In this document: positions 10,000 through 64,000 of the stretch, in pieces | Numbering within the stretch: position 1 is the stretch's first letter | Layout: the number at the start of each line of letters is the position of its first letter | Assembly (NCBI GenBank): GCA_964509365.1 | Contig: CAZDWN010000002.1 | Location: 3,701 to 67,700 of the forward strand | From: an uncultured Pseudomonadales bacterium | GTDB lineage: Bacteria > Patescibacteriota > Microgenomatia > UBA1400 > UBA12028 | Length of the DNA stretch: 64,000 nucleotides | Direction: 5' to 3' | Notes under the pieces: generated by a model | Told to the model about the DNA's origin: nothing | Seen by the model: the letters and a program-made list of their open reading frames with translations, nothing else | Database searches by the model: none | Position numbers and translations under genes: made by a program

Positions 10000-10317
10000 C
10001 TACTCTTGAGTATCTTCATTTCCCGATAGGCTTTCCTGCATGTAACGATAGACAATTGAAATAACTTCACGGATATCGTCATTCGCATTTTTGTATGCAA
10101 GCTTATCAAAAGCGACATCCCTGAGTTCTCGAATTGGATCACTAATTAACGCATGGATAAAAGACTGTGTGGCTCCACTTATACCCTTAAAATCTAGAAT
10201 AACTTCGTCACCACTTGATAAGGCTGGCATAATTTCTTCAATTCTCAACTTCTTTGCGATGTCTTTGTTTTCTGCGAATTCTCCAACTATTTTTTTCATT
10301 TTGATACTTTTCTTCAT
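10000..10317 (-). CDS. STAS-like (DUF4325-like) small protein, partner of the upstream GHKL ATPase
   Basis: 105 aa. 'EVILDFKGISGATQSFIHALI' resembles STAS/anti-sigma-antagonist-like DUF4325 as I recall it. ATGA start/stop overlap with the ATPase gene. A+T-rich. Confidence 0.55.
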   Translation of the reverse strand: MKKSIKMKKIVGEFAENKDIAKKLRIEEIMPALSSGDEVILDFKGISGATQSFIHALISDPIRELRDVAFDKLAYKNANDDIREVISIVYRYMQESLSGNEDTQE

Positions 10318-11282
10318 ATAAATCTTGGCTCTTTATAGGTTCCTTTTTTTCGTTCTCGAATGGCTTTATCATATACTTCACCAATGCTTGATAGCAGTTG
10401 ATTAAGTTCTGGTGTCTCATCGAGTGAAATATCTACTGCTACTAATGTTCCTTGAAAACTTGGAGCAGTGTTTGTCTTACTATGTAGATCGCGAGTTGGA
10501 TCTGCATACAATCTGGGTGCAACTTTGACTCGTTTATCATGTTTTAACAATGTATATTCTCCGGTACCGCTATAGATGACAAAATAGTTGCGTGTAGTCT
10601 TGGCAATAGATTTAATAAAGAATAAACCTGCTCCTGCATTTTCTGCAGTTCCTCCTTCTTTGCGAGTTGTCCCAGTAATCCCTGGAGTTAAAGCTAGTTT
10701 AATTGCTTCGATATCATTTTTAGGATGCCAGTACGTATTCATACTCTTCCAGATTCCTATACCTGTATCACAAATTCCTATGCTGACACGATTCGTTTTT
10801 TTGTAATACTGAGCAGCAACAATGGCTCCATTCTTTGCAAATGAATGTTCTAATACGTTTCTCACCAATTCGCCAATGATATATTTCACTACTACAGCAT
10901 TTTCTTCAGATAAATGGAGAAGTGGAATCATGTCAGTAATAAACGTAGACTGATCTTCGGCAGTTTTTATAACTTTAATCGGAACAAATCTACCCGCTTC
11001 CTCCTTTTTATGATATGAAAATGGAGAAGAAGTACTGGTGAGGTCATACAACCCCATCCTATCTAAGTAGAGGCCAGTATCAGGAACTTCTCCAATAATT
11101 TCAGAGTTTATCTTCCCCACCTGAATTGCTAAAGCAGCAGCCAAAACAAGATTTGCGGGATGAACTGTGACCCACTTATCATGTGTTGATATCTGGAGCT
11201 TTTCAGGCTCAGATAATTCAAGTGATTCAGCAAAACCTCTGAAATTTCTTAAATTGCCTTGATTTGACAAATGTATCTTCAT
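10314..11282 (-). CDS. GHKL-superfamily (histidine-kinase-like) ATPase with ~120-aa N-terminal domain of unknown function
   Basis: 322 aa. N-box 'ELVRNVLEHS', G1 'GICDTGIGI', G2 'GAGLFFIKS'. No HisKA/phospho-acceptor domain and no TM. Confidence 0.7.
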   Translation of the reverse strand: MKIHLSNQGNLRNFRGFAESLELSEPEKLQISTHDKWVTVHPANLVLAAALAIQVGKINSEIIGEVPDTGLYLDRMGLYDLTSTSSPFSYHKKEEAGRFVPIKVIKTAEDQSTFITDMIPLLHLSEENAVVVKYIIGELVRNVLEHSFAKNGAIVAAQYYKKTNRVSIGICDTGIGIWKSMNTYWHPKNDIEAIKLALTPGITGTTRKEGGTAENAGAGLFFIKSIAKTTRNYFVIYSGTGEYTLLKHDKRVKVAPRLYADPTRDLHSKTNTAPSFQGTLVAVDISLDETPELNQLLSSIGEVYDKAIRERKKGTYKEPRFI

Positions 11283-11292
11283 ACATGAATTC

Positions 11293-11379
11293 TACCCGTA
11301 GAGCGTGTTTATGTCAATACACGCTCTACGGGGTGATTTTTGCCCGTAGAGCGTGTTTTCTCGAGAAGACGTTCTACGG
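11293..11379. promoter_or_regulatory. Twin palindromes sharing arm CCCGTAGAGCGTGT in the divergent promoter region of the GHKL-STAS operon and the 11424 membrane gene
   Basis: Palindrome 1: CCCGTAGAGCGTGT-N10-ACACGCTCTACGGG (11293..11330), followed by TGATTTTTG. Palindrome 2: 39-nt imperfect palindrome 11341..11379 centred on CTCGAG. Read directly from the sequence. Confidence 0.5.
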
Positions 11380-11423
11380 GGAGAGATGCTGTCGTGGCGG
11401 GAAAATGAGAGTTTTTCCACCAA

Positions 11424-11993
11424 TTGAATGATTTTTGGAACTTCTTCCGACTATTGTCATGCATGGGAATTCGAATCGAAGCACGAAAGCGAATCGTATT
11501 TTTGACGGTACTTACACTACTGTGCATTGCTACTTGGCTGTACACATTTTTTGGTCCGATGTCGATGAACTCGATTTCGTCTGGATCGCTTTTGCCTTTT
11601 CTTTATCTTCGTCTTGGTGCGTTCCTCGTTGGATTTTCTTCTGGCATCCTTGCCCTCATTTCATTCATTTGGGACCAGCGCTACTCGGCACGAAGACTAT
11701 ATTTCTTCCAATTTCTATCAATTACTGCAGGTGTACTTAGCTTGCTGACATTGTTTACTTACATTCCAGTTACCAATTCTTTTCTGTACACCAAGGTTGT
11801 AGCCACTGAAGTTGTTGGAATACTTCTCGCTTTGCTTAGCTTGCTCATGCTTCCTTTCGGTCTCACTGTTGCTGCTCAGCGCAGACAGTCACTTATCCTC
11901 GCTATTTTGAATTGCCTCGTATTATCCCCATATATCTTTTGGGGAGCAATTCTGCTTTTTCTCCTAGGTATTGGATTTGGGCCACCATCGTGA
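11424..11993 (+). CDS. Hypothetical polytopic membrane protein
   Basis: 189 aa, 5-6 hydrophobic helices. No recognisable family. Confidence 0.55.
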   Translation: MNDFWNFFRLLSCMGIRIEARKRIVFLTVLTLLCIATWLYTFFGPMSMNSISSGSLLPFLYLRLGAFLVGFSSGILALISFIWDQRYSARRLYFFQFLSITAGVLSLLTLFTYIPVTNSFLYTKVVATEVVGILLALLSLLMLPFGLTVAAQRRQSLILAILNCLVLSPYIFWGAILLFLLGIGFGPPS

Positions 11994-12008
11994 TGCTATA
12001 CTTTCACC

Positions 12009-54325: not shown

Positions 54326-56305
54326 TCATTTCTTCATATACAAGGCTTCAAGCTCACGATGCGATACGATTGCAAACACAGAAGCATTTCCTTCTAAGCC
54401 GTTTTCTTGCGCCAAAATTCGAAAGTTCTTGTCATATCGAATTGCCCACACTGGGTTACCCGGGTTGGGTCCGGCGATGCGCGAGTAGACTTTGACGACA
54501 CAGCCACCTCTATTTGCACGGTCGAGTGTCGCTTTGAGTCGCGACGGACTCACTTCCGCTTTACTACTCACAAAATTCAATGGAAATTCAAACTGCGGTC
54601 GATAGCGCGACTGCAGGATTTGTTCCTCAAAAGAATGAGGAGCGTTCTCAAGTGCATGTGCATTTTTGTCGCGCTGCGACCTTGCCGTTTTTGGTGACTT
54701 CATCTGCTCTGGCCCTTTTGGCTTAATTTTATGGACCGAAATTGGGTTGGTGTATTCTTTGGACTGCGTTTTTGATTCTTGACGATTCGACGTGATTTTT
54801 TTGGCGTTGAGTTTGAGGATGTTGGCGACGATCCCTGCGAAGCAATTTTCCAAGAATTCATCTTCTCGCTCGTCGTCAATGACACGAAGATAGATTTTTG
54901 GAGGGTCCATGAAGAGGTCAAGTGCGACCGTCATTTCGGTAAAACCCGCGGCTTTGAGAGGCTCGGATGGCGAATAATTCTCTACTGCGTTGCTATCATG
55001 TACGAAGAATATTTGAAAATAGATTACGTCATCTATTTTCTTTGCCTGAGTCGTCAAACGCTCCGTGGGTATTTTTAATCCGGAGACGCCGACGTCGAGC
55101 AGCTGCGTCGATTTATGTGATAATTTGAGTTTTTCGACATTGGTGCGCACTTCATCCCAATCGACGGGATCTTCCTTGTCTTCAGGATCAAAGTATTTCC
55201 GCATTGCGTCTTTCGTAATGACGATCATATCGGTCTGGTTTTCAAAAAACACTCTGATGTGAGCCGCAATGTTTGAATAGAGAGGGTTTGGACTGTCGGC
55301 TGCAATTATCGTCACTGATCGATACAGCGAGGCAATATCCAAATCAAGGTGAACTCCTCGAAGTGCGGCTCCTCTGGCGATAAATTCATACCATTCATCT
55401 TCATTGAGAGTAAGTGACGTTGTATGGACAAGGGAATTCAGAAGTTTGACTGCATCTTCATGGCGAGGATCATCGTCGTCCATCAATGAGCCATAGGTTT
55501 GCATGATGATGTTTTCAAAGAGCAAATAGAGTTGTGTGGCCAGAGATTTCTCTTTTGACTCTGCGGAATGTCGTTTCAATACACTGAGTGCTTCATTTTT
55601 TGGCGCGAGTAAAAAGGTTTTCAAGAAGTTTGTGAGTGTTGGTGAAGCATTTGTTTGCAGGAGGTGTGTGAGGAGTTCGGCAACTCGTTTGTATTGATCG
55701 ACGGACTCAGTGTCATCGCCAATTTTTTTTCGTGCTTCACTCGATAGTATGTCGTATACCCCAAATATTTCAGAGAGTTTCTTCGGTTGGCCAAGTTCAT
55801 GCGAAAGTTCACGAACAGGGATCTTCGTCCACTTTGGCATTTGATAGATGATGGCGTCATCTAGTGCATTCTCAAATTGTTGATGCAATTGAGACAGGAG
55901 TGCAATTCCGCTTTCGGCAAATGACACTGAAGATGCGAACGATTGCATTTCCCATTCAAAGGTCTGATAGTCTTGCTCAATGGCTGGCTTATCATCAAGA
56001 TTGAGAGTGTGGCGCCTGGCTGTAACTTTTTGAAACGATAAATAGGATTTGCAAAATGCTGTAGCGAGATTGTTGACGTTGAGGATGTTTCGTTTTCGCA
56101 CTGCTTCCATGAATAGCGCATTCACATTTGTCGCCGATTGGATCTCAGCATCTGCTTTTGCTTTCTGATTTGATGCAAATTGTATGGCAGCTTCTTCTTT
56201 CGTTGTCTGGTCAGTGAGTGTGAGCACTCGGTTCTCAGATTTGCCACCGAGATTTTGCTCGGGAAAAGATTTAGAAGGATCGAAGTGTAACCGTTCGTTT
56301 GCCAT
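54326..56305 (-). CDS. Large hypothetical protein with RelE/YoeB-like C-terminal ~60 aa
   Basis: 659-aa ORF. C-terminal 'VWAIRYDKNFRILAQ...ASVFAIVSHRELEALY' resembles the YoeB 'FWSRRITEEHRLVYAV...LLIAACRYHY' core. The rest is unassigned. Confidence 0.6.
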   Translation of the reverse strand: MANERLHFDPSKSFPEQNLGGKSENRVLTLTDQTTKEEAAIQFASNQKAKADAEIQSATNVNALFMEAVRKRNILNVNNLATAFCKSYLSFQKVTARRHTLNLDDKPAIEQDYQTFEWEMQSFASSVSFAESGIALLSQLHQQFENALDDAIIYQMPKWTKIPVRELSHELGQPKKLSEIFGVYDILSSEARKKIGDDTESVDQYKRVAELLTHLLQTNASPTLTNFLKTFLLAPKNEALSVLKRHSAESKEKSLATQLYLLFENIIMQTYGSLMDDDDPRHEDAVKLLNSLVHTTSLTLNEDEWYEFIARGAALRGVHLDLDIASLYRSVTIIAADSPNPLYSNIAAHIRVFFENQTDMIVITKDAMRKYFDPEDKEDPVDWDEVRTNVEKLKLSHKSTQLLDVGVSGLKIPTERLTTQAKKIDDVIYFQIFFVHDSNAVENYSPSEPLKAAGFTEMTVALDLFMDPPKIYLRVIDDEREDEFLENCFAGIVANILKLNAKKITSNRQESKTQSKEYTNPISVHKIKPKGPEQMKSPKTARSQRDKNAHALENAPHSFEEQILQSRYRPQFEFPLNFVSSKAEVSPSRLKATLDRANRGGCVVKVYSRIAGPNPGNPVWAIRYDKNFRILAQENGLEGNASVFAIVSHRELEALYMKK

Positions 56306-56406: not shown

Positions 56407-57627
56407 ATGAAGCGAAGTGAGAGTGACCAGTTGGCATTTGATTTGGAGCCTGAGTTCTCAGTCTCAGAGTTTTTAGATCTCCTCAATGGGACATTTGGTG
56501 CTCGTGAGTTTACGGTCATCGGTGAGATCGCGGAGGTGAATGTCCGCGGCAAAGCAGTGTACATCAAGCTCAAAGACAAAGCCGATGGTTCGACGCTGGA
56601 GACGATCCTATGGACGTACAATGCGCGTCGACTGGGTTTTGATCCGACGGAAGGACAAGAAGTCAAAGTCGTCGGCAAAGTACAGATCTACAAGCCGTAT
56701 GGCAAACTCTCGCTGATCATCTCGCATATCTCACCACTGGGTGAAGGTGCTCTCAAAGCTGCTTTTGAAAAACTCAAAAAAGATTTGGAAGCTCGAGGAT
56801 ATTTTGATGAAGCTCGCAAACGCGAACTTCCAGCATATCCCTCACATATTGGATTGATCACCTCGCGGATGGGTGATGCGCGCAAAGATTTCCTCACGCA
56901 TTTAGCTCCATATTGGATTCGAGTATCGTTTTTGGATGCACGAGTAGAAGGAGTGAGTGCCATCGATAGTATCGTGAGTGCACTACATGAGTTCAATCGT
57001 CTTCCCGCGTCAGTTGATTTGATTGTCCTCACACGTGGTGGCGGCAGTATCGAGAGTCTCCAAGCTTTCAATTCCTACGAAGTAGCTCAAGCTATTTTTA
57101 GTTCTCGGATCCCTGTCGTCTCAGCGGTCGGGCATGAAAATGATATTACGATCGCGGACCTCGTCGCTGATGTGCGAGCCTCCACACCGACGCACGCGGG
57201 TCAGCTGGTCAGTCGTGGCTATGTGGATGCTGCGAGTGAGTTATCTTTGCTGCACGCTCGTCTGATCAACAACTTCGCATCACTGCTCTCCAATTTCCGA
57301 TTGACGACAGAGATGTTTACGCGCAATAGCACGGCCATTCTTCGCACGGTCCGTGACAAACAGCAGCAGTTGCTCACTCTCTCTACTCGGCTTGATTCAG
57401 ATATTCGCATGACATTGACTCGGTCGTTAGAAAGACTAGAGGCCCAAGCGACCTTACTTGATTCCAATGATCCCGAGAAGAAAATATCGCAAGGATATTC
57501 GATCGTCCGTGACAGTTCTGGCCATGTGGTCAAAGATCCGACACAGCTTCGAGCCGATGATATACTCATGCTTCGCATGAAACAGGCAGTGGTCAGTACA
57601 CAAGTATCCGAGGTAACGCCGCTATGA
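56407..57627 (+). CDS. xseA: Exodeoxyribonuclease VII large subunit
   Basis: N-terminal OB-fold 'REFTVIGEIAEVNVRGKAVYIKLKD', central catalytic region, C-terminal coiled-coil. Confidence 0.85.
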   Translation: MKRSESDQLAFDLEPEFSVSEFLDLLNGTFGAREFTVIGEIAEVNVRGKAVYIKLKDKADGSTLETILWTYNARRLGFDPTEGQEVKVVGKVQIYKPYGKLSLIISHISPLGEGALKAAFEKLKKDLEARGYFDEARKRELPAYPSHIGLITSRMGDARKDFLTHLAPYWIRVSFLDARVEGVSAIDSIVSALHEFNRLPASVDLIVLTRGGGSIESLQAFNSYEVAQAIFSSRIPVVSAVGHENDITIADLVADVRASTPTHAGQLVSRGYVDAASELSLLHARLINNFASLLSNFRLTTEMFTRNSTAILRTVRDKQQQLLTLSTRLDSDIRMTLTRSLERLEAQATLLDSNDPEKKISQGYSIVRDSSGHVVKDPTQLRADDILMLRMKQAVVSTQVSEVTPL

Positions 57628-57917
57628 AAAATATGCACGTCAATTTCACCGATGCGATGAAAGAGCTTGCTGAGATCAATGCGTGGTTCGCCCGCTCCGA
57701 TATCGATTTGGATGAAGCGATGGAGAAACTCAAGCGAGGTAATTTTCTCATCAAAGAATGTAGGAAGAAACTTGTCCAAGTGGAAAATGAGTTTGAAGAG
57801 ATTCAAAAAGACTCAGTGGATGAGTCTGAAAGTACCGTGGACGCCACCATCGTCATTGCCGCAGAGTCGGATACCAGTGATGTTACTGCTGATTCCGCGG
57901 ACGACATGCCGTTTTAG
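57624..57917 (+). CDS. xseB: Exodeoxyribonuclease VII small subunit
   Basis: 97-aa helical protein with ATGA overlap to xseA. 'FEDAMKELAEI...LDEAMEKLKRGNFLIKECRKKL'. Confidence 0.8.
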   Translation: MKNMHVNFTDAMKELAEINAWFARSDIDLDEAMEKLKRGNFLIKECRKKLVQVENEFEEIQKDSVDESESTVDATIVIAAESDTSDVTADSADDMPF

Positions 57918-58378
57918 CGACTCAAAATTGCAATTCTTCGCAAGTGTTCTTGTAAGAACGGGTCAAGATACGTTGAAAGCGTGCCATCCTCATTTGTAGT
58001 TACACCACTTTTGAGATGTGTTCCCTTCATATCTTCATTGAGAAGTTGTGCCCGCATGATGCAGAGTTGGTCATAACAGTCTTGGTGAAACCTTAATTTA
58101 TCTTCAGGCGACATGCCATTCGCATTGAATTCAGGGTGTAGTTTGCTGATGCGGCTCTCCAAATATGCTATTCGCGCGTCAGTGTGTGCGATCAAGACTC
58201 CATTTTGAGCTTTGTGAAGGAGCATGTTGGCATTTGGATTCGGAAGAGCTGAGAGTTTTTCATCCAAGTCTTTTGCGACCATGCTGATTTTTAAGAGTCC
58301 AGAAAGTTCTTGCAACATTGATTCCATTTCATCAGATTGAGCGTGTTCATGGTTTGTCATATCTTCGGATTGTATCAC
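57914..58378 (-). CDS. Hypothetical protein, distal gene downstream of hsdR
   Basis: 154-aa ORF. 4-nt convergent overlap with xseB. Confidence 0.45.
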   Translation of the reverse strand: MIQSEDMTNHEHAQSDEMESMLQELSGLLKISMVAKDLDEKLSALPNPNANMLLHKAQNGVLIAHTDARIAYLESRISKLHPEFNANGMSPEDKLRFHQDCYDQLCIMRAQLLNEDMKGTHLKSGVTTNEDGTLSTYLDPFLQEHLRRIAILSR

Positions 58379-58384
58379 CAGTCA

Positions 58385-58633
58385 CTAGCTTTGATCCGCG
58401 GTTTCCAAGATTGCCAATCCTTTCGCGACGATCTCAGCGAGCGCGATCGTCTCGGTGCGCTCCACATCCGTGAGCAGATCCAGTTTCGGCCAGAGTTTCT
58501 CGACTTTGTCTCTGATCTTGTAGATATCATCACGAAATTCATCCCGAAGTTCTTTCGAGTCTTGGAGCTTTTTCATGAACTTCACGACATCCTTTTTGTC
58601 GCTCGTGCTCAGATCCACATTTTTTTTTGGCAT
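58385..58633 (-). CDS. Small hypothetical protein 23 nt downstream of hsdR
   Basis: 82-aa charged helical ORF. Confidence 0.45.
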   Translation of the reverse strand: MPKKNVDLSTSDKKDVVKFMKKLQDSKELRDEFRDDIYKIRDKVEKLWPKLDLLTDVERTETIALAEIVAKGLAILETADQS

Positions 58634-58656
58634 AGTTCAAAGCGAAGACGTTACCT

Positions 58657-61569
58657 TTACTTAAATTTCTTAATAACTACATCAACTAGTCTGTTTAGTA
58701 ATTTTGGAAATACCGTAGCATCAACCGAATCTTTGTAATTTTTAAGGAGCACTTCCTGAATTGTCTGCTTTATTGATTTTATGAACTCTTCTCTCTTTGA
58801 AGAATTTTGCCAGTTCGTATCAAGATTTGCGTTCAACTCATACGTTAGTGTATGAGTAATATCACCAAGTTTTTCGTCTTTCTGATCTGTAATGAACTCT
58901 TGTAAAAGTCTAAAAATACCCATCTCTTGCAGAGAAAAACCTAATGCCTTGGCCTCCTCATGTTTAGTTTTCATGTCGTCGAGCAGGTGATAGTATCGTT
59001 TAATCCGTTCAGATAAATCGATTTGCTGTTTTTCAAACTCTTCCTTAATCACTGCCAGCCGTTCACTAAATTTTAAGAAGCTTGGATCAGAATCTATCTG
59101 TATACGAAGTTCATGTTGAATAATTCTTTCTAATTGGATTGCTTTCTCTTCCTGAGAATCATTGGTCAATTTGTTTAAGACATAAATATCGTTGACCGTA
59201 AGTTCTCTGAAATTGCGTGTAATTCCTTCATAATCAATCTTATCCTGAATGATTTTCTTCACTTTTTCTCCATATTCAGCGAGTATTTCGTTATCATTTT
59301 CTGGAGATCTGTAGGTTTTCACAAACGCAAGATAAAAGGATGTGATCCACTCGAAACGTCGCAAATACGGAAGTAAAAAAGGGTCAGGAGACAAAATCTC
59401 ATAATACATGCGCAAGGAACTATAACGGTCAACAAAGTAATTTTGTTTTTGCTCATTATCCGAAAAGATCTTGAGCGCTCGACGAAGATTTTCCATCGAA
59501 GGATCTTCTATCGAGATAGTAATAAAGAGCTCCATTACTTGATCAATAGTTTCTGAAAATTGATCCTTTATTTTGGCAATGTTGACCAATGCAGCATCGA
59601 CGATACTCTCATCAAAGTTTAATGAGTCGTATAGGTTTTTTGTTATTCCATAATAATCAATTATTCTTCCACAACCTTTATTGGGGTAAACTCTGTTTGT
59701 TCTTGCTATCGCCTGAAGCAGATTATGATCGCGTAATGGTTTATCGAGGTACATCACTTGTTCAATAGGGGCATCAAAGCCAGTCAGTAACATATCGCAC
59801 ACAATCAAAAATCGAATTGAGCCTTGTGCATCTTTAAATCTGGAGATGATATCCTCACGCTCTTGTTTGCTTGTGTGATGCAGCTTGAGGTCTTCATTTT
59901 CAGTATTGGGATCACCCGGGGAGTAGACTACTACTGACCACTCTGTGGGGATCAATGTATCGAGGAGTGATTTATACTTTGCTGCAGATTCGCGATCGTA
60001 GCATACGAGCTGCGCTTTAAATCCATTTGGCTCCACATAGAGTCTAAAGTGCTCGACAAGATCTTTCGCAATTGTTTCCATCCGCTTGTCAAGTTTTATT
60101 AGCGCTGCTTTCTTGCCATATTTTCGCATGAGTATGTCTTTTTGCTCTGAGGACAGATCAGTTGTCAGTGAATCGAACTGCTCGTCTACTTTTTGCTCAT
60201 CAATCGAAAACTTCGAAAGCCTGGCTTCATATGTCACAGGTAATGTTGCTCCATCGTCAATCGCCTGCTGGATGGAGTAATAATCTAAGTATCTTTCTCC
60301 GACCTCTCCAAAATTTCTATGAGTATTGAGTGTTGTTTTGTCTATTGGAGTACCCGTAAATCCAAAGAAAAATGCATTGTGCATGGAAGATCTCAAATGG
60401 ATGGCTGACACTCCTTCGTTGTCACGATGTGCTTCATCAGACAGTACAATAATATTTTCATTGTGATTCACTATAGTGCTGCTCAATTCACTAAATTTCT
60501 GAACAGTTGAGATAAATATTCCACGCTGCGGACTTTGAATCTTTTGTTCCAGGTCTTTCCTAGAGGTCACGCGAATTACATTTTCGCCACCGCAATGAAT
60601 GAACGTGTCGTGTATCTGATCGTCGAGATCAATGCGGTCGACAAGGACGAACACTTTTGGATTTTTAAGCTTTGGGTCAAAACGCAGTTTCCACGCTGAA
60701 AAAAACATAGTGAGGCTTTTTCCTGATCCCTGAGTGTGCCAGATTAGTCCTTTTCTTTTCTCGCCATTTTGAACTCGTTCCACGATTTTGTTGGTTGCTC
60801 GTACCTGCTGATATCTAGCGATCTTCTTCTCTTTTCCAGTCTTGGTTTTCTCAAAGACAATGAAGTTATCGATGAGATCAAGCACATTTTTCGGATCCAA
60901 TAACGAAAAGAGTGTCATCTCCAAAGATCCTCCAAGGTCGGTCTCGAGTTTCTCATCTTTCCACTGTAAAAACGACTGAAGTGGAGCGTATGTAGCGCCA
61001 TACATTGTTTGCAGTCCATCTGTGGCAATGTTGAAACAATTTGGCAGAAAGAGGCGTGGAGCATTTTTTTCATATCTCTTCAGTTGACCGACAGCGAGTG
61101 AGTAGTCGACGACTATACTGGCTGTCGGACTTTTCGCTTCGATATCGACGACAGGTATGCCATTGATGAAGACGAGAATATCTGGGCGTATGTTTTCTAG
61201 CGTCCCTTCAAAATAGAACTGGTTGGTGATCACAAACCGATTGTTGCCTTGCTTTGCCACGTCGATGACACGGTAGTCTTGCATCTTCCCCGTTTGCTGA
61301 TTCTTGATATTAATGCCATCACGAAACAATTTGAGAAAAGACTCGTTGCTGTCGATCTTTCGAATTTCTCGCAGCACACTGGCTGCCTCATCGTCATCGA
61401 TGGCATTGATTTTTTTGATTGCGTCAGTCAAATGAGAGGTTATGAGTAATTCATTCTCAAATTCACGAAGTTTTGAGAACTGTTCTGGTGGAATATACTC
61501 ATACCCCAGCGTCTTTGTGAGGAACTTGATGATATGTCTCTCCACTGTATATTCTTCGTTAAATTTCAT
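58657..61569 (-). CDS. hsdR: Type I restriction enzyme R (endonuclease/helicase) subunit
   Basis: 970 aa. N-terminal nuclease region. SF2 helicase Walker A 'HTQGSGKSLTM', 'LSDEAHR' DEAH box, helicase C-terminal motifs. A+T-rich. Confidence 0.9.
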   Translation of the reverse strand: MKFNEEYTVERHIIKFLTKTLGYEYIPPEQFSKLREFENELLITSHLTDAIKKINAIDDDEAASVLREIRKIDSNESFLKLFRDGINIKNQQTGKMQDYRVIDVAKQGNNRFVITNQFYFEGTLENIRPDILVFINGIPVVDIEAKSPTASIVVDYSLAVGQLKRYEKNAPRLFLPNCFNIATDGLQTMYGATYAPLQSFLQWKDEKLETDLGGSLEMTLFSLLDPKNVLDLIDNFIVFEKTKTGKEKKIARYQQVRATNKIVERVQNGEKRKGLIWHTQGSGKSLTMFFSAWKLRFDPKLKNPKVFVLVDRIDLDDQIHDTFIHCGGENVIRVTSRKDLEQKIQSPQRGIFISTVQKFSELSSTIVNHNENIIVLSDEAHRDNEGVSAIHLRSSMHNAFFFGFTGTPIDKTTLNTHRNFGEVGERYLDYYSIQQAIDDGATLPVTYEARLSKFSIDEQKVDEQFDSLTTDLSSEQKDILMRKYGKKAALIKLDKRMETIAKDLVEHFRLYVEPNGFKAQLVCYDRESAAKYKSLLDTLIPTEWSVVVYSPGDPNTENEDLKLHHTSKQEREDIISRFKDAQGSIRFLIVCDMLLTGFDAPIEQVMYLDKPLRDHNLLQAIARTNRVYPNKGCGRIIDYYGITKNLYDSLNFDESIVDAALVNIAKIKDQFSETIDQVMELFITISIEDPSMENLRRALKIFSDNEQKQNYFVDRYSSLRMYYEILSPDPFLLPYLRRFEWITSFYLAFVKTYRSPENDNEILAEYGEKVKKIIQDKIDYEGITRNFRELTVNDIYVLNKLTNDSQEEKAIQLERIIQHELRIQIDSDPSFLKFSERLAVIKEEFEKQQIDLSERIKRYYHLLDDMKTKHEEAKALGFSLQEMGIFRLLQEFITDQKDEKLGDITHTLTYELNANLDTNWQNSSKREEFIKSIKQTIQEVLLKNYKDSVDATVFPKLLNRLVDVVIKKFK

Positions 61570-61571
61570 AG

Positions 61572-62420
61572 TTACTTCTTTTTCTCAAGTAGCTTCTTCA
61601 TCTTATCAGTAAACGTCTTGGCCTTACTTTTTCTAGTTTGAATTTCCTCTACGAGATAGATCAAAATATTTTTAATATTATCTGCTGACTCCAAACATTC
61701 TTCGTCTGTTCTATTATGGAGCCCATCGCTCAATGATGAATGTAGGAGCTTTAGCGGATTGTTGCCATTAGGCTGTAAGGATGTTGGAAGAAGATCTTGG
61801 ACTAGTTCGATCTTTTGTTCGGCAACTCGAGTTTTTTTGACTTGATCCAGTGCATCTTTATATTTTCCTTTGTCTTCCTCATCAATAAGATCCTCGACGG
61901 ATATTAGAAGTTCGTCTATTATCTTTTCGGTAATTTGTCGGAAGTATGCATACGCACCGATTCCATAACTCTCTGATTCGCAAACGAGCCCTTTCTTGTA
62001 AAGGTCGGCATGCTCACCGAGCGTCTTTTCTAGTTTTGGGTCCATGTCTATTTCCCACTGAGGTGTTTGCCCAATTTTTTGAACGCTGCCACTGTAATAA
62101 ATGGTGCCATTCTTTTCAGCTTTAGTCTTTAGTGAAAATAATACGTAGAAGTGATAAAAATAGGAATTACAGGCCGAACACAAATACCTCATTCGTATAG
62201 GAACTCCCCAAACATCAATAGTTTTAGCTCCATATTCATTTGATGCAAGGATCTCCCAGATTTCGTTACTTATATTAAACGTTTGGACGGAACCACAACT
62301 CTTGCAGTACATATTAATTGCAGGGGTGGATATGTCATCGAGCTGCGTATTGTAGTAAGGCTCATCGACTTTTAGCTTTCGATAAAGTGGATACGTTTCT
62401 AAAAACTCTTTTGTGATCAT
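61572..62420 (-). CDS. Hypothetical protein embedded between hsdS and hsdR, with N-terminal CxxC...CxxC zinc-finger-like motif (possibly DUF4145-like)
   Basis: 282-aa ORF overlapping hsdS by 4 nt and 2 nt from hsdR. 'CKSCGS...CSACNS'. C-terminal region reminiscent of DUF4145 accessory proteins of R-M loci (recollection, uncertain). Confidence 0.55.
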   Translation of the reverse strand: MITKEFLETYPLYRKLKVDEPYYNTQLDDISTPAINMYCKSCGSVQTFNISNEIWEILASNEYGAKTIDVWGVPIRMRYLCSACNSYFYHFYVLFSLKTKAEKNGTIYYSGSVQKIGQTPQWEIDMDPKLEKTLGEHADLYKKGLVCESESYGIGAYAYFRQITEKIIDELLISVEDLIDEEDKGKYKDALDQVKKTRVAEQKIELVQDLLPTSLQPNGNNPLKLLHSSLSDGLHNRTDEECLESADNIKNILIYLVEEIQTRKSKAKTFTDKMKKLLEKKK

Positions 62421-63559
62421 ATGTCTGCCTTTCTCCCAAATATCTCTTTCATAATTCCTGATTTTGTATTCCTCAGTGTAAATTGAGCTTTCCTTTCCAA
62501 CTCGATCTTTTGATCCAATGTATATAAAAGGTCGGCGATTTTCTTCTGTTCCTCAATGGGTGGAAGTGGAATTTTGATCTTCTTAAAAAATGATAAGCCA
62601 ATGGTTTTTATCGTGGAACCCGATGCTATTTGCTCAAAAACTGGCTTCCTGTGCTGAAGAATGTAATAAAGGAATAGGTTGTTTAACCTTTCTCCACACC
62701 TCCAGGCAATGAAATGCTGGCTAACTGCCATTGGTTCAGTTGTTATTGCACTTTTTCCAATACCGGCATCCCTAGATAAGACGACAACCCCTTCGGGATG
62801 CATAACTGCAGAAGAATGCTCAATCCCTTCCTGAGAAATCTGCTTTGATGTCTGTGAAATGTATACCCGGTCGAGTCTAAAGGTGTCTGAAAGAGATATC
62901 CACTTAATTCCTCCATTCCAATAATTTGGAAATGTTTTATTTGGAGTATGACCACTCCCTCTTTTGGCAACGTGATCTAATAATTCAACTTCCCAATTTT
63001 CAGGAATACTGCCAATCTCAGTTTTCTTAAAATCTGTATGCCCAATGCCTTTGGTCAAAAGTTCCTGCATCAAGCCTTGCTTTAGTTCTTCTGTCTTTTG
63101 AATAGTTTGATCTGTGATGCTAATGGCGTTATCAACGATTTCTAATTCACTCGCGATTTTCTTCTGTACACTACGTGCGGGGAGTGAAATCTCTAATTTA
63201 TAAACATCATCCCTGTTAAGTCCAGGTACACCTGTCCCTCGATTCATCTTGCCTAGCTCGAGTGTTTGGAGCATGAAATAAATCCATTTAAGATCCACCA
63301 TATCACTTTCAGTAATGTAGTAGGTGGTATCAATCGGCCAAAAAGGTTCGTCAGACCATTCAAGCTTTCCTATACTCCCTTTTCTACCGACAATTATTCC
63401 TTTTGTGTTTACAAGACTATTTCCATTCGTCCCTACGATTCCATTAGAGCCATATACAGGAATATCTCCAGGAGTCCTTTTTTGGGAAGGCAAATTCTTA
63501 CCATATTCAAGTTTTAAGATGTCTCCAATTTTTATCTTTTTCAAATTTTGAGTTGACAT
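62417..63559 (-). CDS. hsdS: Type I restriction-modification specificity subunit
   Basis: 380 aa with two target-recognition domains separated by a conserved helical spacer ('LKQGLMQELLTKG') and a C-terminal conserved helix. Confidence 0.85.
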   Translation of the reverse strand: MSTQNLKKIKIGDILKLEYGKNLPSQKRTPGDIPVYGSNGIVGTNGNSLVNTKGIIVGRKGSIGKLEWSDEPFWPIDTTYYITESDMVDLKWIYFMLQTLELGKMNRGTGVPGLNRDDVYKLEISLPARSVQKKIASELEIVDNAISITDQTIQKTEELKQGLMQELLTKGIGHTDFKKTEIGSIPENWEVELLDHVAKRGSGHTPNKTFPNYWNGGIKWISLSDTFRLDRVYISQTSKQISQEGIEHSSAVMHPEGVVVLSRDAGIGKSAITTEPMAVSQHFIAWRCGERLNNLFLYYILQHRKPVFEQIASGSTIKTIGLSFFKKIKIPLPPIEEQKKIADLLYTLDQKIELERKAQFTLRNTKSGIMKEIFGRKADI

Positions 63560-63563
63560 AGGT

Positions 63564-64000
63564 TTAAGTTTCTTCGCCGGAATAGAGTTCGACTGTTTCG
63601 TGCAACTTCTTCACTCTACTTTTTGCGCCTGAAATACCATCAAATGCTGGGAGTTTCTCAGGCATGGTGCCACCGATCTCTTGGATGGCTTTGCGCACTT
63701 GCCTCCCGACTTCAAAGTGCGTTTGATTTGCTCTCGCCTCACCCTTGATGTTTTCTCGTTTAAGCTTGGCATCTGCTTGTGTTGCGCGAAACAAATTGGC
63801 AGCAAGTTCTTCGCTGCCCATGTGGTCGAGTATGCCTTGACTCTTTTTCAAACCTTTTAATGTATGGATATCCTGCGATGTGAGCCCTGCATACAATCCT
63901 TTGTATCCGTAATTGGTAAAAACACCGTAGTTTTTGACACCTGCTCTGCTGGCAGTCTCCGCAAGATGTTTGTTGTGTGCGGTAATCTCATCGCGAAGCA
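63564..64000 (-). CDS. DinD/RhuM-family protein, 3' part. The gene continues beyond the window end
   Basis: Translation upstream of the tabulated ORF stays open to the window edge. 'LRDEITAHNKHLAETASRAGVKNYGVFTNYGYKGLYAGLTSQDIHTLKGLKKSQGILDHMGSEELAANLFRATQ...THFEVGRQVRKAIQEIGGTMPEKLP' closely parallels the E. coli DinD C-terminal half as I recall it. Confidence 0.7.
   Translation of the reverse strand, partial: LRDEITAHNKHLAETASRAGVKNYGVFTNYGYKGLYAGLTSQDIHTLKGLKKSQGILDHMGSEELAANLFRATQADAKLKRENIKGEARANQTHFEVGRQVRKAIQEIGGTMPEKLPAFDGISGAKSRVKKLHETVELYSGEET

What the first reader, a model, noticed from the sequence alone, without database searches (positions are those of the whole stretch)
58385..63559. 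A+T-rich Type I R-M cassette (hsdR, embedded zinc-finger gene, hsdS) lacking adjacent hsdM, followed by two small co-transcribed genes
hsdR, a 282-aa CxxC...CxxC protein and hsdS overlap or abut (4-nt and 2-nt junctions) and are visibly more A+T-rich than the G+C-richer genes on either side (the dinD-like gene and the 82/154-aa ORFs). The embedded gene is typical of accessory anti-phage or regulatory genes (DUF4145-like) riding in Type I loci. hsdM is separated from hsdS by the dinD-like gene and lies outside the window. The 82-aa ORF begins 23 nt after hsdR, so it and the 154-aa ORF are probably read through from the R-M operon.
Basis: partly seen in the sequence, partly recalled or inferred. 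Interest (0 to 1): 0.55.

Follow-up and report, generated by a model that had tools for sequence, protein, structure and literature searches.

The report
Type I restriction operon carrying RAZR-like gene
This is an ordinary, horizontally acquired Type I restriction-modification operon whose slot between the specificity and restriction genes carries a highly conserved but unnamed zinc-ribbon protein, a distant relative of the RAZR/DUF4145 abortive-infection RNases that lacks their catalytic arginine.

Summary
On the minus strand lie a dinD/Bro-N-like gene cut by the window end, hsdS, a 282-aa Cys4 gene (X) and hsdR. The junctions are a 4-nt gap, an ATGA overlap and a 2-nt gap. hsdS to hsdR is the lowest-G+C 4.9 kb of the window (0.392 against 0.468).

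"Lacking hsdM" is almost certainly a window-edge effect. The closest relative reads hsdM, Bro-N (73% identical to the window fragment), hsdS, X.

In about 50 sister operons the order is hsdM, cargo, hsdS, cargo, hsdR, YgjP. The cargo is very diverse defence-type material: ThsB-TIR, Abi_alpha, Shedu, NYN, MazF, AAA_13 and true RAZR/PD-T7-4.

X has no Pfam, NCBIfam or PADLOC hit. It belongs to a large family (3397 representatives) in Bacteria and Archaea. It is embedded in Type I or Type III operons in Patescibacteria, mostly solitary elsewhere, and fused once to an Mrr nuclease.

Profile comparison (82-85%) and weak fold matches make X a divergent zinc-ribbon plus DUF4145/HEPN-like protein. The His is invariant, but the Arg position is H/Y/F.

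The 82-aa and 148/154-aa ORFs are orphans sitting where relatives have YgjP. Their co-transcription is untested.

Verdict: a new, uncharacterised member or variant of a known kind, of moderate interest.

The parts
63564..64000 (-). 3' part (144 codons) of a DinD/Bro-N-family gene; cargo in the hsdM-hsdS slot; its 5' end and hsdM lie beyond the window
   Evidence: NCBIfam PRK11525 DinD 3.8e-45, profile positions 141-276 of 288. PADLOC PDC-S13 4.7e-49. 73% identical over 132 aa to the Bro-N protein that lies between hsdM and hsdS in L171. 4-nt gap to hsdS.
62417..63559 (-). hsdS, Type I specificity subunit (380 aa, two target-recognition domains)
   Evidence: Pfam Methylase_S 2.9e-49, two stretches. 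PADLOC Specificity_I 1e-87. Best relative among 170 loci is 53% identical over residues 104-374 only, the others 40% or less.
61572..62420 (-). X: 282-aa Cys4 zinc-ribbon/beta N-domain (residues 1-120) plus helical DUF4145/HEPN-like C-domain (128-281); cargo in the hsdS-hsdR slot
   Evidence: No Pfam, NCBIfam or PADLOC hit. 280 word-indexed homologues and 3397 representatives at E<=1e-3. AF2 pLDDT 91.9. hhalign to the Zn-ribbon-DUF4145 family 82-85%. C-domain Foldseek top hit is HEPN-T 2q00. phrog_25239 6.7e-42. ATGA overlap with hsdS and 2-nt gap to hsdR.
58657..61569 (-). hsdR, Type I restriction subunit (970 aa, full length)
   Evidence: TIGR00348 1.3e-163. Pfam HSDR_N, SWI2_SNF2, ResIII, T1R_D3-like and T1RH-like_C. 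57-72% identical over residues 1-969 to many metagenomic relatives.
58385..58633 (-). 82-aa orphan ORF, 23 nt downstream of hsdR, at the window's own G+C level (0.478)
   Evidence: No family in Pfam, NCBIfam, PADLOC or PHROGs apart from a sub-threshold NCBIfam ArnR match, 19.9 bits against a cut-off of 400. No tblastn match in about 170 related loci. No terminator-like site between it and hsdR.
57914..58378 (-). 154-aa ORF (more likely 148 aa from ATG 58360); orphan; its end overlaps the end of xseB (57624-57917, + strand) convergently by 4 nt
   Evidence: The 148-aa form is the one held in the protein collection. Only one partial homologue, 85% identical and 84 aa long. No family hits.

Best explanation
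The region is the distal part of a horizontally acquired Type I R-M operon of a clade common in Patescibacteria (CPR) metagenomes. Its canonical order is hsdM (with an N-terminal MerR-type HTH), cargo, hsdS, cargo, hsdR, YgjP-like.

In this window the hsdM-hsdS slot holds a DinD/Bro-N-family gene and the hsdS-hsdR slot holds X. hsdM lies just beyond coordinate 64000. The usual YgjP-like gene after hsdR is absent.

X is an autonomous two-domain module. It has an N-terminal Cys4 zinc-ribbon/beta domain and a C-terminal helical domain that is a divergent DUF4145/HEPN-like fold.

By analogy with RAZR (PD-T7-4), I infer that X is a second-line, abortive-infection-type sensor-effector co-expressed with the R-M enzyme. 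In RAZR the zinc-finger domain senses phage ring proteins and the DUF4145 HEPN domain cleaves RNA. In X the zinc-ribbon domain would sense a phage or foreign trigger, or possibly the state of the R-M complex, and the helical domain would execute or transmit the response.

The canonical HEPN Arg is replaced by H/Y/F. Another residue set is invariant instead (E148, R161, N221, S231, H235, C242). So the chemistry is either a non-canonical nuclease site or a non-catalytic signalling or adaptor role.

Shown: gene identities, operon architecture, slot variability, family distribution, remote homology, and loss of the Arg.

Inferred: the defence function, the sensor/effector division of labour, co-transcription, and any dependence on the R-M enzyme.
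For: Operon and slots:
- Among HsdR relatives that are 57-72% identical, the order hsdM, cargo, hsdS, cargo, hsdR, YgjP recurs in about 50 loci.
- 84 cargo proteins include ThsB_TIR x6, AAA_15/AAA_21, NYN, AAA_13, Abi_alpha, SduA_C, DUF3800, DUF4145 x2, AbiJ_NTD4, Bro-N, PemK and Fic.
- One cargo protein is a full-length PD-T7-4/RAZR (8.5e-91).
- X occupies the hsdS-hsdR slot in L011, L017, L028, L032, L054, L090, L128, L171 and L172.
- X lies next to Type III-like res/mod genes in L001-L004, L007 and L012.
- The closest relative, L171, reads hsdM, Bro-N, hsdS, a 446-aa gene, X, Abi_alpha. Its Bro-N protein is 73% identical to the window fragment.

Nature of X:
- Cys4 is invariant in 254-255 of 255 members.
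- The AF2 models are confident, pLDDT 91.9 and 90.3.
- hhalign against a Zn-ribbon-DUF4145 family that matches PD-T7-4 gives 82-85% probability at E 6e-6 to 1e-5. It runs over the whole length and aligns X H235 with the DUF4145 His.
- The best Foldseek matches of the C-domain are HEPN proteins: 2q00 (TM 0.48/0.59) and sacsin HEPN 3o10 (TM 0.47/0.53).
- X is fused to an Mrr_cat restriction-endonuclease domain in L089.
- The family shows a patchy, HGT-like spread over many bacterial phyla and over Asgard, Methanoperedens and Bathyarchaeia archaea.
- Integrase or resolvase neighbours occur in 6 solitary loci.
- The family is present in PHROGs and on one viral contig.

RAZR mechanism: PMC13017515. 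DUF4145 as a HEPN family linked to R-M operons and fused to zinc ribbons and REases: PMC3710099.

Horizontal origin:
- The block is the lowest-G+C stretch of the window.
- The same genes have G+C 0.33-0.39 in relatives whatever their flanks.
Against: - No experiment and no curated model supports a defence role for X. PADLOC, Pfam and NCBIfam give nothing.
- The homology to DUF4145 is remote: 82-85% hhalign probability, and the Foldseek E-values of 0.1-1.6 are not significant. The full-length model found nothing in PDB or BFVD.
- The Arg of the R-x7-H motif, essential in RAZR (R146), is never present. Position 227 is H in 144 members, Y in 107 and F in 3.
- Most homologues outside CPR are solitary genes among housekeeping genes. 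The unusually high conservation, 37-65% identity across domains of life, would also fit a non-defence cellular role.
- hsdM was not seen, so a complete and functional R-M system in this genome is not demonstrated.
Confidence: 0.6

Rival explanations
1. X is a guard of the R-M enzyme in the PrrC/EcoprrI manner. It would be held silent by binding the HsdMSR complex and released as a toxin when a phage anti-restriction protein inactivates the enzyme.
For: X sits in the slot between hsdS and hsdR that prrC occupies in the prr locus (established knowledge; position shown). It is translationally coupled by the ATGA overlap and the 2-nt gap. AAA_13, which I recall as the PrrC/RloC ATPase family, occurs as alternative cargo in sister operons. 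X also appears inside Type III-like operons and fused to an Mrr nuclease, which suggests physical or functional coupling to restriction nucleases.
Against: Most family members are solitary, with no R-M gene within 10 kb, so the protein cannot depend on an R-M partner in general. X shows no homology to PrrC or RloC and has no ATPase domain. X associates with unrelated R-M types, which argues for carriage rather than a specific protein-protein interaction.
Confidence: 0.15
2. X is not a toxin or effector. It is a regulatory or adaptor protein, for example a zinc-ribbon nucleic-acid-binding factor that tunes expression or activity of neighbouring nucleases, or a housekeeping factor that is only sometimes captured by R-M operons.
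For: The catalytic Arg of the HEPN motif is lost in all 255 members examined. Conservation is very high across Bacteria and Archaea. Solitary copies lie among housekeeping genes, for example between proB and a DUF2007 gene in Desulfobaccales. The fusion to Mrr_cat fits a sensor or regulatory module attached to a separate effector.
Against: An invariant polar constellation (E148, R161, N221, S231, H235, C242) looks more like an active or ligand site than a mere scaffold. The distribution is patchy with mobile-element neighbours. The slots it occupies are otherwise filled by effectors, not regulators. It has no HTH or other known DNA-binding regulator domain.
Confidence: 0.2
3. The cassette is a decaying remnant: an orphan hsdS-X-hsdR without a methyltransferase, inactive and on its way to loss.
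For: hsdM is not in the 64-kb window (tblastn). The YgjP-like gene that follows hsdR in nearly all relatives is missing.
Against: All three ORFs are full length and intact, with tight coupling. An active HsdR without HsdM would have no complex to act in, and the closest relatives place hsdM exactly upstream of the Bro-N gene. The window simply ends about 420 nt short of the dinD-like start codon.
Confidence: 0.05

Closest known systems
RAZR / PD-T7-4 (ring-activated zinc-finger RNase; PDB 9y9c; PMC13017515)
   Same: Single polypeptide with an N-terminal Cys4 zinc-ribbon domain, a conserved linker and a C-terminal helical DUF4145-type domain. The His and the 'FRR' helix are conserved. It is a single-gene module found solitary and, as shown here, also as cargo in the same Type I operon slots (L130 and L124). 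There is remote profile homology via the L124 family.
   Different: The PD-T7-4 model gives no hit. X is 60-70 aa longer, with a larger beta-rich N-domain (1-120) and a longer helical domain. The catalytic Arg (RAZR R146) is replaced by H/Y/F, and the Asn at position -4 from the His by an invariant Ser. Triggers, RNase activity and oligomerisation are unknown.
Pfam DUF4145 (PF13643), a HEPN-superfamily family 'in operon with R-M' and fused to zinc ribbons and REases (PMC3710099)
   Same: Same kind of genomic associations: R-M operons, a zinc-ribbon fusion and an REase fusion in L089. Same helical topology. The motif skeleton x-x-x-[GL]-[NS]-x-G-x-H is kept.
   Different: The Pfam model does not detect X or, as far as listed, any of 48 relatives. 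The Arg of the motif is absent. In this it resembles the 'conserved H but lacks R' HEPN families (c2405; PaREP1, PDB 2q00) listed in that paper.
prrC / rloC and other 'R-linked ORFs' embedded in Type I loci (EcoprrI prr locus; Campylobacter rlo genes), from established knowledge
   Same: A gene intercalated between hsdS and hsdR and co-oriented with them, tightly coupled, in an operon family whose slots hold many alternative abortive-infection genes.
   Different: No sequence or domain relationship: no ABC-type ATPase and no anticodon-nuclease domain. X is mostly solitary elsewhere, so R-M dependence is not implied.
BxaP (BREX-associated) and Ishtar (anti-plasmid) DUF4145/HEPN proteins (PMC10799925; bioRxiv 10.64898/2026.07.06.735840)
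   Same: A DUF4145-type HEPN domain joined to a second, poorly understood domain. They ride next to, or stand in for, self/non-self systems.
   Different: Different domain order and partners: HEPN is N-terminal in both, with a HEAT-like or beta/alpha C-domain. No detectable direct similarity to X was tested or seen.

Membership tests
Type I restriction-modification system | HsdR: N-terminal nuclease domain plus SF2 motor plus C-terminal helical domain | tested here: met
   TIGR00348 546 bits (cut-off 284.55). Pfam HSDR_N, SWI2_SNF2, ResIII, T1R_D3-like and T1RH-like_C.
Type I restriction-modification system | HsdS with two target-recognition domains | tested here: met
   Methylase_S 2.9e-49, two stretches. 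PADLOC Specificity_I 1e-87 over residues 5-330.
Type I restriction-modification system | HsdM methyltransferase encoded with hsdS and hsdR | not testable with these tools
   No HsdM match anywhere in the window. The source contig could not be retrieved. Relatives place hsdM directly upstream of the Bro-N/DinD-like gene.
Pfam DUF4145 (PF13643) | Match to the family HMM at or above the gathering score | tested here: not met
   No DUF4145 hit for X even at E<=10. None among the families listed for 48 relatives. P0071, which UniRef names DUF4145, has no hit at E<=0.1.
Pfam DUF4145 (PF13643) | Remote homology by profile-profile comparison with bona fide members | tested here: inconclusive
   hhalign of A1 against A4 gives 81.6% probability at E 1.1e-5 over 111 columns. 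With relaxed mact it gives 85.5% at E 5.7e-6 over 209 columns.
RAZR / PD-T7-4 | Match to the PADLOC PD-T7-4 model | tested here: not met
   No PADLOC hit for X, P0025 or P0115 at E<=0.1. The positive controls L130 (8.5e-91) and L124 (3.6e-10) do match.
RAZR / PD-T7-4 | N-terminal Cys4 zinc-ribbon domain | tested here: met
   C39, C42, C81 and C84 are invariant in 254-255 of 255 members. They align with the CxxC pairs of the DUF4145 family.
RAZR / PD-T7-4 | Catalytic Arg and His (R146/H154, R-x7-H) in the C-terminal domain | tested here: not met
   His is present (H235, 254 of 255). The position 8 residues upstream is H (144), Y (107) or F (3) and never R.
HEPN superfamily | Four-helix up-down HEPN fold | tested here: inconclusive
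   The C-domain model (pLDDT 90.3) has top Foldseek hit 2q00_B, a HEPN-T PaREP1 protein: TM 0.48/0.59, rmsd 3.9, E 0.11. Sacsin HEPN 3o10 is rank 7 (TM 0.47/0.53). The E-values are not significant.
HEPN superfamily | R-x4-6-H motif | tested here: not met
   Only the His is kept. PMC3710099 lists other HEPN families of the 'lacks R but H is conserved' type.
PrrC/RloC anticodon nucleases | ABC-type ATPase N-domain (AAA_13) plus a C-terminal nuclease domain | tested here: not met
   X has no AAA_13 or any ATPase hit. AAA_13 proteins do occur as alternative cargo in sister operons.

The most novel reading that the evidence does not exclude
X defines a new, widespread single-gene immune family present in Bacteria, Asgard and other Archaea, and some phages. 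It would be related to RAZR but with a re-wired HEPN-like site (E148, R161, N221, S231, H235, C242 in place of R-x-H). Patescibacteria would have repeatedly plugged it into Type I and Type III restriction operons as a second line of defence, and one Planctomycete fused it to an Mrr nuclease. It would then be a natural example of a zinc-ribbon sensor module being exchanged between RNase-type and DNase-type effectors.
Probability: 0.35. Interest if true: 0.6.

Novelty: new variant of a known kind. Interest (0 to 1): 0.4.

Why it matters
The Type I cassette itself is routine. Two things have some value.

First, X belongs to a large, strongly conserved family with no name in Pfam, NCBIfam or PADLOC. 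There are 3397 representatives at 50% identity. It can now be tied by remote homology, architecture and context to the recently solved RAZR/DUF4145 zinc-finger RNases. It has lost the canonical catalytic Arg, which makes it a clear test case for how far HEPN-like immune effectors can diverge.

Second, the clade of Type I operons to which this one belongs is a natural "cargo rack". Its two slots hold dozens of alternative defence genes in organisms with tiny genomes (CPR). That makes it a useful hunting ground for new defence genes: many slot occupants have no family at all.

Nothing here overturns current understanding.

Tried and rejected
- **Retrieving the source contig beyond 64000 failed.** The goal was to see hsdM. 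Exact-product look-ups of X and HsdS are not on record. The GTDB-representative scan does not contain the genome. The metagenome scan gave relatives of at most 72% identity only.
- **Full-length fold search found nothing usable.** Neither PDB nor BFVD gave a TM above 0.3. Only the isolated C-domain gave weak HEPN matches.
- **A PDB sequence-profile search with the X family found nothing relevant**.
- **hhalign against only two DUF4145 sequences was useless** (2% probability). A 36-sequence profile was needed.
- **A conserved partner gene for solitary X copies was rejected.** Neighbour clustering finds no recurrent partner outside R-M genes.
- **The small ORFs as a degraded YgjP gene were rejected.** There is no tblastn similarity.
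- **The small ORFs as conserved operon members were rejected.** They have no homologue in about 170 loci and one partial hit in 5.8 billion clusters.
- **HsdS target-recognition-domain 'novelty' was not pursued further.** The domains are divergent, as is normal for HsdS.
- **Promoter and terminator scans are at or below shuffle expectation**, so they are uninformative.
Full report
**1. What is in the sequence**

| Gene | Coordinates | Junction to the next gene downstream |
|---|---|---|
| dinD-like fragment | 63564 to beyond 64000 | 4-nt gap |
| hsdS | 62417-63559 | ATGA stop/start overlap |
| X, 282 aa | 61572-62420 | 2-nt gap |
| hsdR | 58657-61569 | 23-nt gap |
| 82-aa ORF | 58385-58633 | 6 nt (GTG 58378) or 24 nt (ATG 58360) |
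| 154-aa ORF | 57914-58378 | its end overlaps the end of xseB convergently by 4 nt |

The junctions were read directly from the sequence. The public protein collection holds the last ORF as 148 aa from ATG 58360, not as 154 aa from the GTG.

- HsdR is a full-length TIGR00348 protein (546 bits against a cut-off of 284.55) with all five usual Pfam domains.
- HsdS has two Methylase_S domains.
- The truncated upstream gene matches DinD (PRK11525, 3.8e-45) over profile positions 141-276 of 288. About 140 codons therefore lie beyond the window.

**2. Composition**

hsdR, X and hsdS have G+C of 0.395, 0.384 and 0.387. The 4.9-kb block is 0.392 against a window mean of 0.468. It is the lowest of all sliding windows of that size, about 3.7 SD below their mean.

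The boundary on the hsdR side is sharp, because the 82-aa ORF is 0.478. The dinD-like fragment is 0.467.

The same genes have G+C of 0.33-0.39 in relatives, whatever the G+C of their flanks. hsdM and Bro-N are always somewhat richer, at 0.40-0.44. The deviation is real. It fits an operon family that carries its own composition into a richer host, which points to horizontal acquisition.

**3. Where is hsdM?**

No HsdM-like sequence exists anywhere in the 64 kb (tblastn). I could not retrieve the source contig. Relatives answer the question indirectly.

- L171 encodes the closest X homologue (64% identity). Its order is hsdM (with an N-terminal MerR HTH), Bro-N, hsdS, a 446-aa gene, X, Abi_alpha.
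- The L171 Bro-N protein is 73% identical over 132 residues to the window's dinD-like fragment.
- L005/L011 read hsdM, Bro-N, DUF2321, hsdS, X, a 256-aa gene, hsdR, YgjP.
- L172 reads hsdM, DUF2321, hsdS, X, a 309-aa gene, hsdR, YgjP.

"Lacking adjacent hsdM" is therefore almost certainly an effect of the window edge plus an intercalated cargo gene.

**4. The operon family is a cargo carrier**

A metagenome scan with HsdR returned 80 loci, most of them 57-72% identical over the whole protein. Annotating them against reference proteins shows a conserved frame: hsdM, slot, hsdS, slot, hsdR, YgjP-like.

- In the close clade both slots are nearly always filled with co-oriented genes of very different sizes.
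- In the distant clade (36-38% identical HsdR) the three hsd genes are contiguous.
- The slot proteins fall into many small clusters or singletons.
- Pfam on 84 of them gives ThsB_TIR (6), AAA_15, AAA_21 and SMC_N (3 each), NYN (3), TIR_2 (3), AAA_13 (2), Abi_alpha (2), SduA_C (2), DUF3800 (2), DUF4145 (2), AbiJ_NTD4 (2), Bro-N (2), PemK (2), and single cases of DUF3644, Fic, WYL and others.
- X occupies the hsdS-hsdR slot in only one (L128) of the roughly 45 loci of this HsdR-selected set in which both hsdS and hsdR could be placed. It is one option among many.
- The window differs from nearly all relatives in lacking the YgjP-like gene after hsdR, and no remnant is detectable.

**5. The embedded protein X**

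X has no hit in Pfam, NCBIfam or PADLOC. Its only Pfam entry is a sub-threshold DUF6650 match at E 0.006.

*Family size*
- The word-indexed search gives 280 hits down to about 45% identity.
- The exhaustive profile search gives 3397 cluster representatives at E<=1e-3 and 960 at E<=1e-30.
- None of the listed members carries a precomputed Pfam domain.
- X matches phrog_25239, of unknown function (6.7e-42).
- One IMG/VR contig carries a homologue next to a small-terminase gene.

*Distribution.* Eighty loci from GTDB species representatives span Patescibacteria, Bacteroidota, Proteobacteria, Planctomycetota, Cyanobacteria and Leptospira. They also include Asgard, Methanoperedens and Bathyarchaeia archaea, at 37-62% identity.

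*Context*
- In Patescibacteria the gene is tightly packed into Type I operons, always between hsdS and hsdR.
- It also lies beside a Type III-like res (861 aa) and mod (N6_N4_Mtase) pair.
- In most other phyla it stands alone with 100-400-nt intergenic gaps.
- Its immediate neighbours there are heterogeneous. Most are housekeeping singletons, with 3 integrases, 3 resolvases, 2 AAA_15/21 proteins and 2 HNH proteins among 98 neighbours.
- No recurrent partner exists outside R-M genes.
- In L089 (Thermoguttaceae) the X module continues without a stop into an Mrr_cat restriction-endonuclease domain.

**6. Structure and remote homology**

The AF2 model is confident (pLDDT 91.9). It shows a beta-rich N-domain (residues 1-120) that contains the two CxxC pairs, a conserved GQxPxWEI linker, and a six-helix C-domain (128-281). 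The full-length model has no meaningful match in PDB or BFVD.

Two slot proteins of sister operons are true DUF4145 proteins with N-terminal CxxC pairs. L130:6396-7028 is a full-length PD-T7-4 (PADLOC 8.5e-91). L124:3183-3890 matches the same model at 3.6e-10. A 36-sequence profile of the L124 family finds PDB 9y9c, the RAZR structure, at 2.5e-20.

hhalign of the X family against that profile gives:
- 81.6% probability at E 1.1e-5 over the zinc ribbon, linker and first helices;
- 85.5% at E 5.7e-6 over 209 columns with a relaxed alignment threshold. That alignment places X G233 and H235 on the G and H of the DUF4145 motif R-x-x-G-N-x-G-x-H, and X R161/R162 on the DUF4145 "FRR".

The isolated C-domain model (pLDDT 90.3) has as best PDB neighbour 2q00_B (TM 0.48/0.59, rmsd 3.9 A, E 0.11). 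Sacsin HEPN 3o10 is at rank 7. PMC3710099 lists 2q00 as the structure of the HEPN-T/PaREP1 family, which "lacks R but H is conserved". These fold matches are weak, but they point the same way as the profile comparison.

A more distant X-like protein without the cysteines lies between hsdM and hsdS in L096. It shares the C-domain motifs and the same PHROG.

**7. The active-site question**

RAZR needs R146 and H154 (PMC13017515). Counts in 255 X-family members are as follows.

| Position | Residue counts |
|---|---|
| Four Cys (39, 42, 81, 84) | 254-255 |
| H235 | 254 |
| 227 (8 residues upstream of the His) | H 144, Y 107, F 3, never R |
| 231 (Asn in DUF4145, at -4 from the His) | S 253 |
| E148 | 253 |
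| R161 | 254 |
| N221 | 252 |
| D239 | 233 (E in 21 more) |
| C242 | 254 |

X therefore keeps the architecture and the His, but not the canonical HEPN dyad.

**8. Interpretation**

The best-supported reading is a horizontally acquired Type I operon of a cargo-carrying clade. Its hsdS-hsdR slot holds an autonomous, RAZR-like zinc-ribbon plus HEPN-like module of unknown chemistry.

- A defence role is inferred from three things: the company it keeps in the slots, its R-M and Mrr associations, and its patchy, mobile distribution. It is not shown.
- A PrrC-type guard mechanism is possible, but solitary copies dominate, which argues against it.
- A regulatory or adaptor role is a serious rival because the catalytic Arg is lost.

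**9. The two small ORFs**

They have no family, apart from a sub-threshold NCBIfam ArnR match for the 82-aa ORF at 19.9 bits against a cut-off of 400. They have no counterpart in about 170 related loci. The 148-aa ORF has one partial homologue in the 5.8-billion-cluster collection.

They sit where relatives have YgjP, and the 82-aa ORF has the window's own G+C level. No terminator-like hairpin separates them from hsdR, so read-through is permitted. Nothing shows that it occurs. They are best treated as lineage-specific orphans at the edge of the inserted operon.

**10. Novelty**

Embedded abortive-infection genes in Type I loci are long known: prrC, rloC, the rlo genes, and DUF4145 "in operon with R-M" in PMC3710099. 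What is new is modest. This is an unnamed, very widespread family that can be attached to the RAZR/DUF4145 lineage as an Arg-less variant, plus a clear picture of a CPR Type I clade acting as a rack for interchangeable defence genes.

Noticed in passing
window 10000-11282 (minus strand): A second low-G+C patch of the window (0.396 over 10001-12000). It holds an overlapping gene pair: a DUF4325 (STAS-like) protein of 105 aa and a 322-aa protein with weak HATPase_c/HATPase_c_2 similarity. It may be another acquired two-gene module.
   Followed up: partly
L089:9713-11650 (Thermoguttaceae MAG JBEKTY010000164.1): The X module (38% identical, starting at the Met at ORF residue 97) is fused in one ORF to a C-terminal Mrr_cat restriction-endonuclease domain (1.2e-17).
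   Followed up: partly
L096:2335-3162: A distant X-like protein (275 aa) has the C-domain motifs (LSKGVH...EEC, YLRRI) and the same PHROG but lacks the four cysteines. It sits in the hsdM-hsdS slot rather than the hsdS-hsdR slot.
   Followed up: partly
L091-L161 (HsdR relatives) and window 58385-58656: Nearly every close relative has a YgjP-like (DUF45/PF01863) gene starting 0-5 nt after hsdR. The window has none and no remnant. In this clade HsdM also carries an N-terminal MerR-type HTH.
   Followed up: partly
L091-L160, slots between hsdM/hsdS and hsdS/hsdR: Many slot proteins have no Pfam family, for example the 446-aa gene in L171, the 309-aa gene in L172, and the 278-283-aa cluster in L109, L136 and L137 (L109 matches PADLOC PDC-S32). 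A recurrent four-gene cargo set of 162-164, 139-140, 229-231 and 189-191 aa fills the hsdM-hsdS slot of L119 and L141, and its first three genes also that of L101, L142 and L160. These are candidates for unknown defence genes.
   Followed up: no
window 54326-56305 (minus strand): A 659-aa ORF with no hit in Pfam or NCBIfam lies between an ABC-F ATPase gene and xseA.
   Followed up: no
window 57914-57917: The 148/154-aa ORF (minus strand) and xseB (plus strand, 57624-57917) converge and overlap by 4 nt. The only terminator-like hairpin for the minus strand (57827-57809) lies inside xseB.
   Followed up: no
L001/L002 105-2055: In the Woesebacteria loci that carry res, X, mod, a SMODS plus AGS_C (CBASS-type cyclase) gene and a LexA-like gene lie within 6 kb. 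The neighbourhood looks like a defence island.
   Followed up: no
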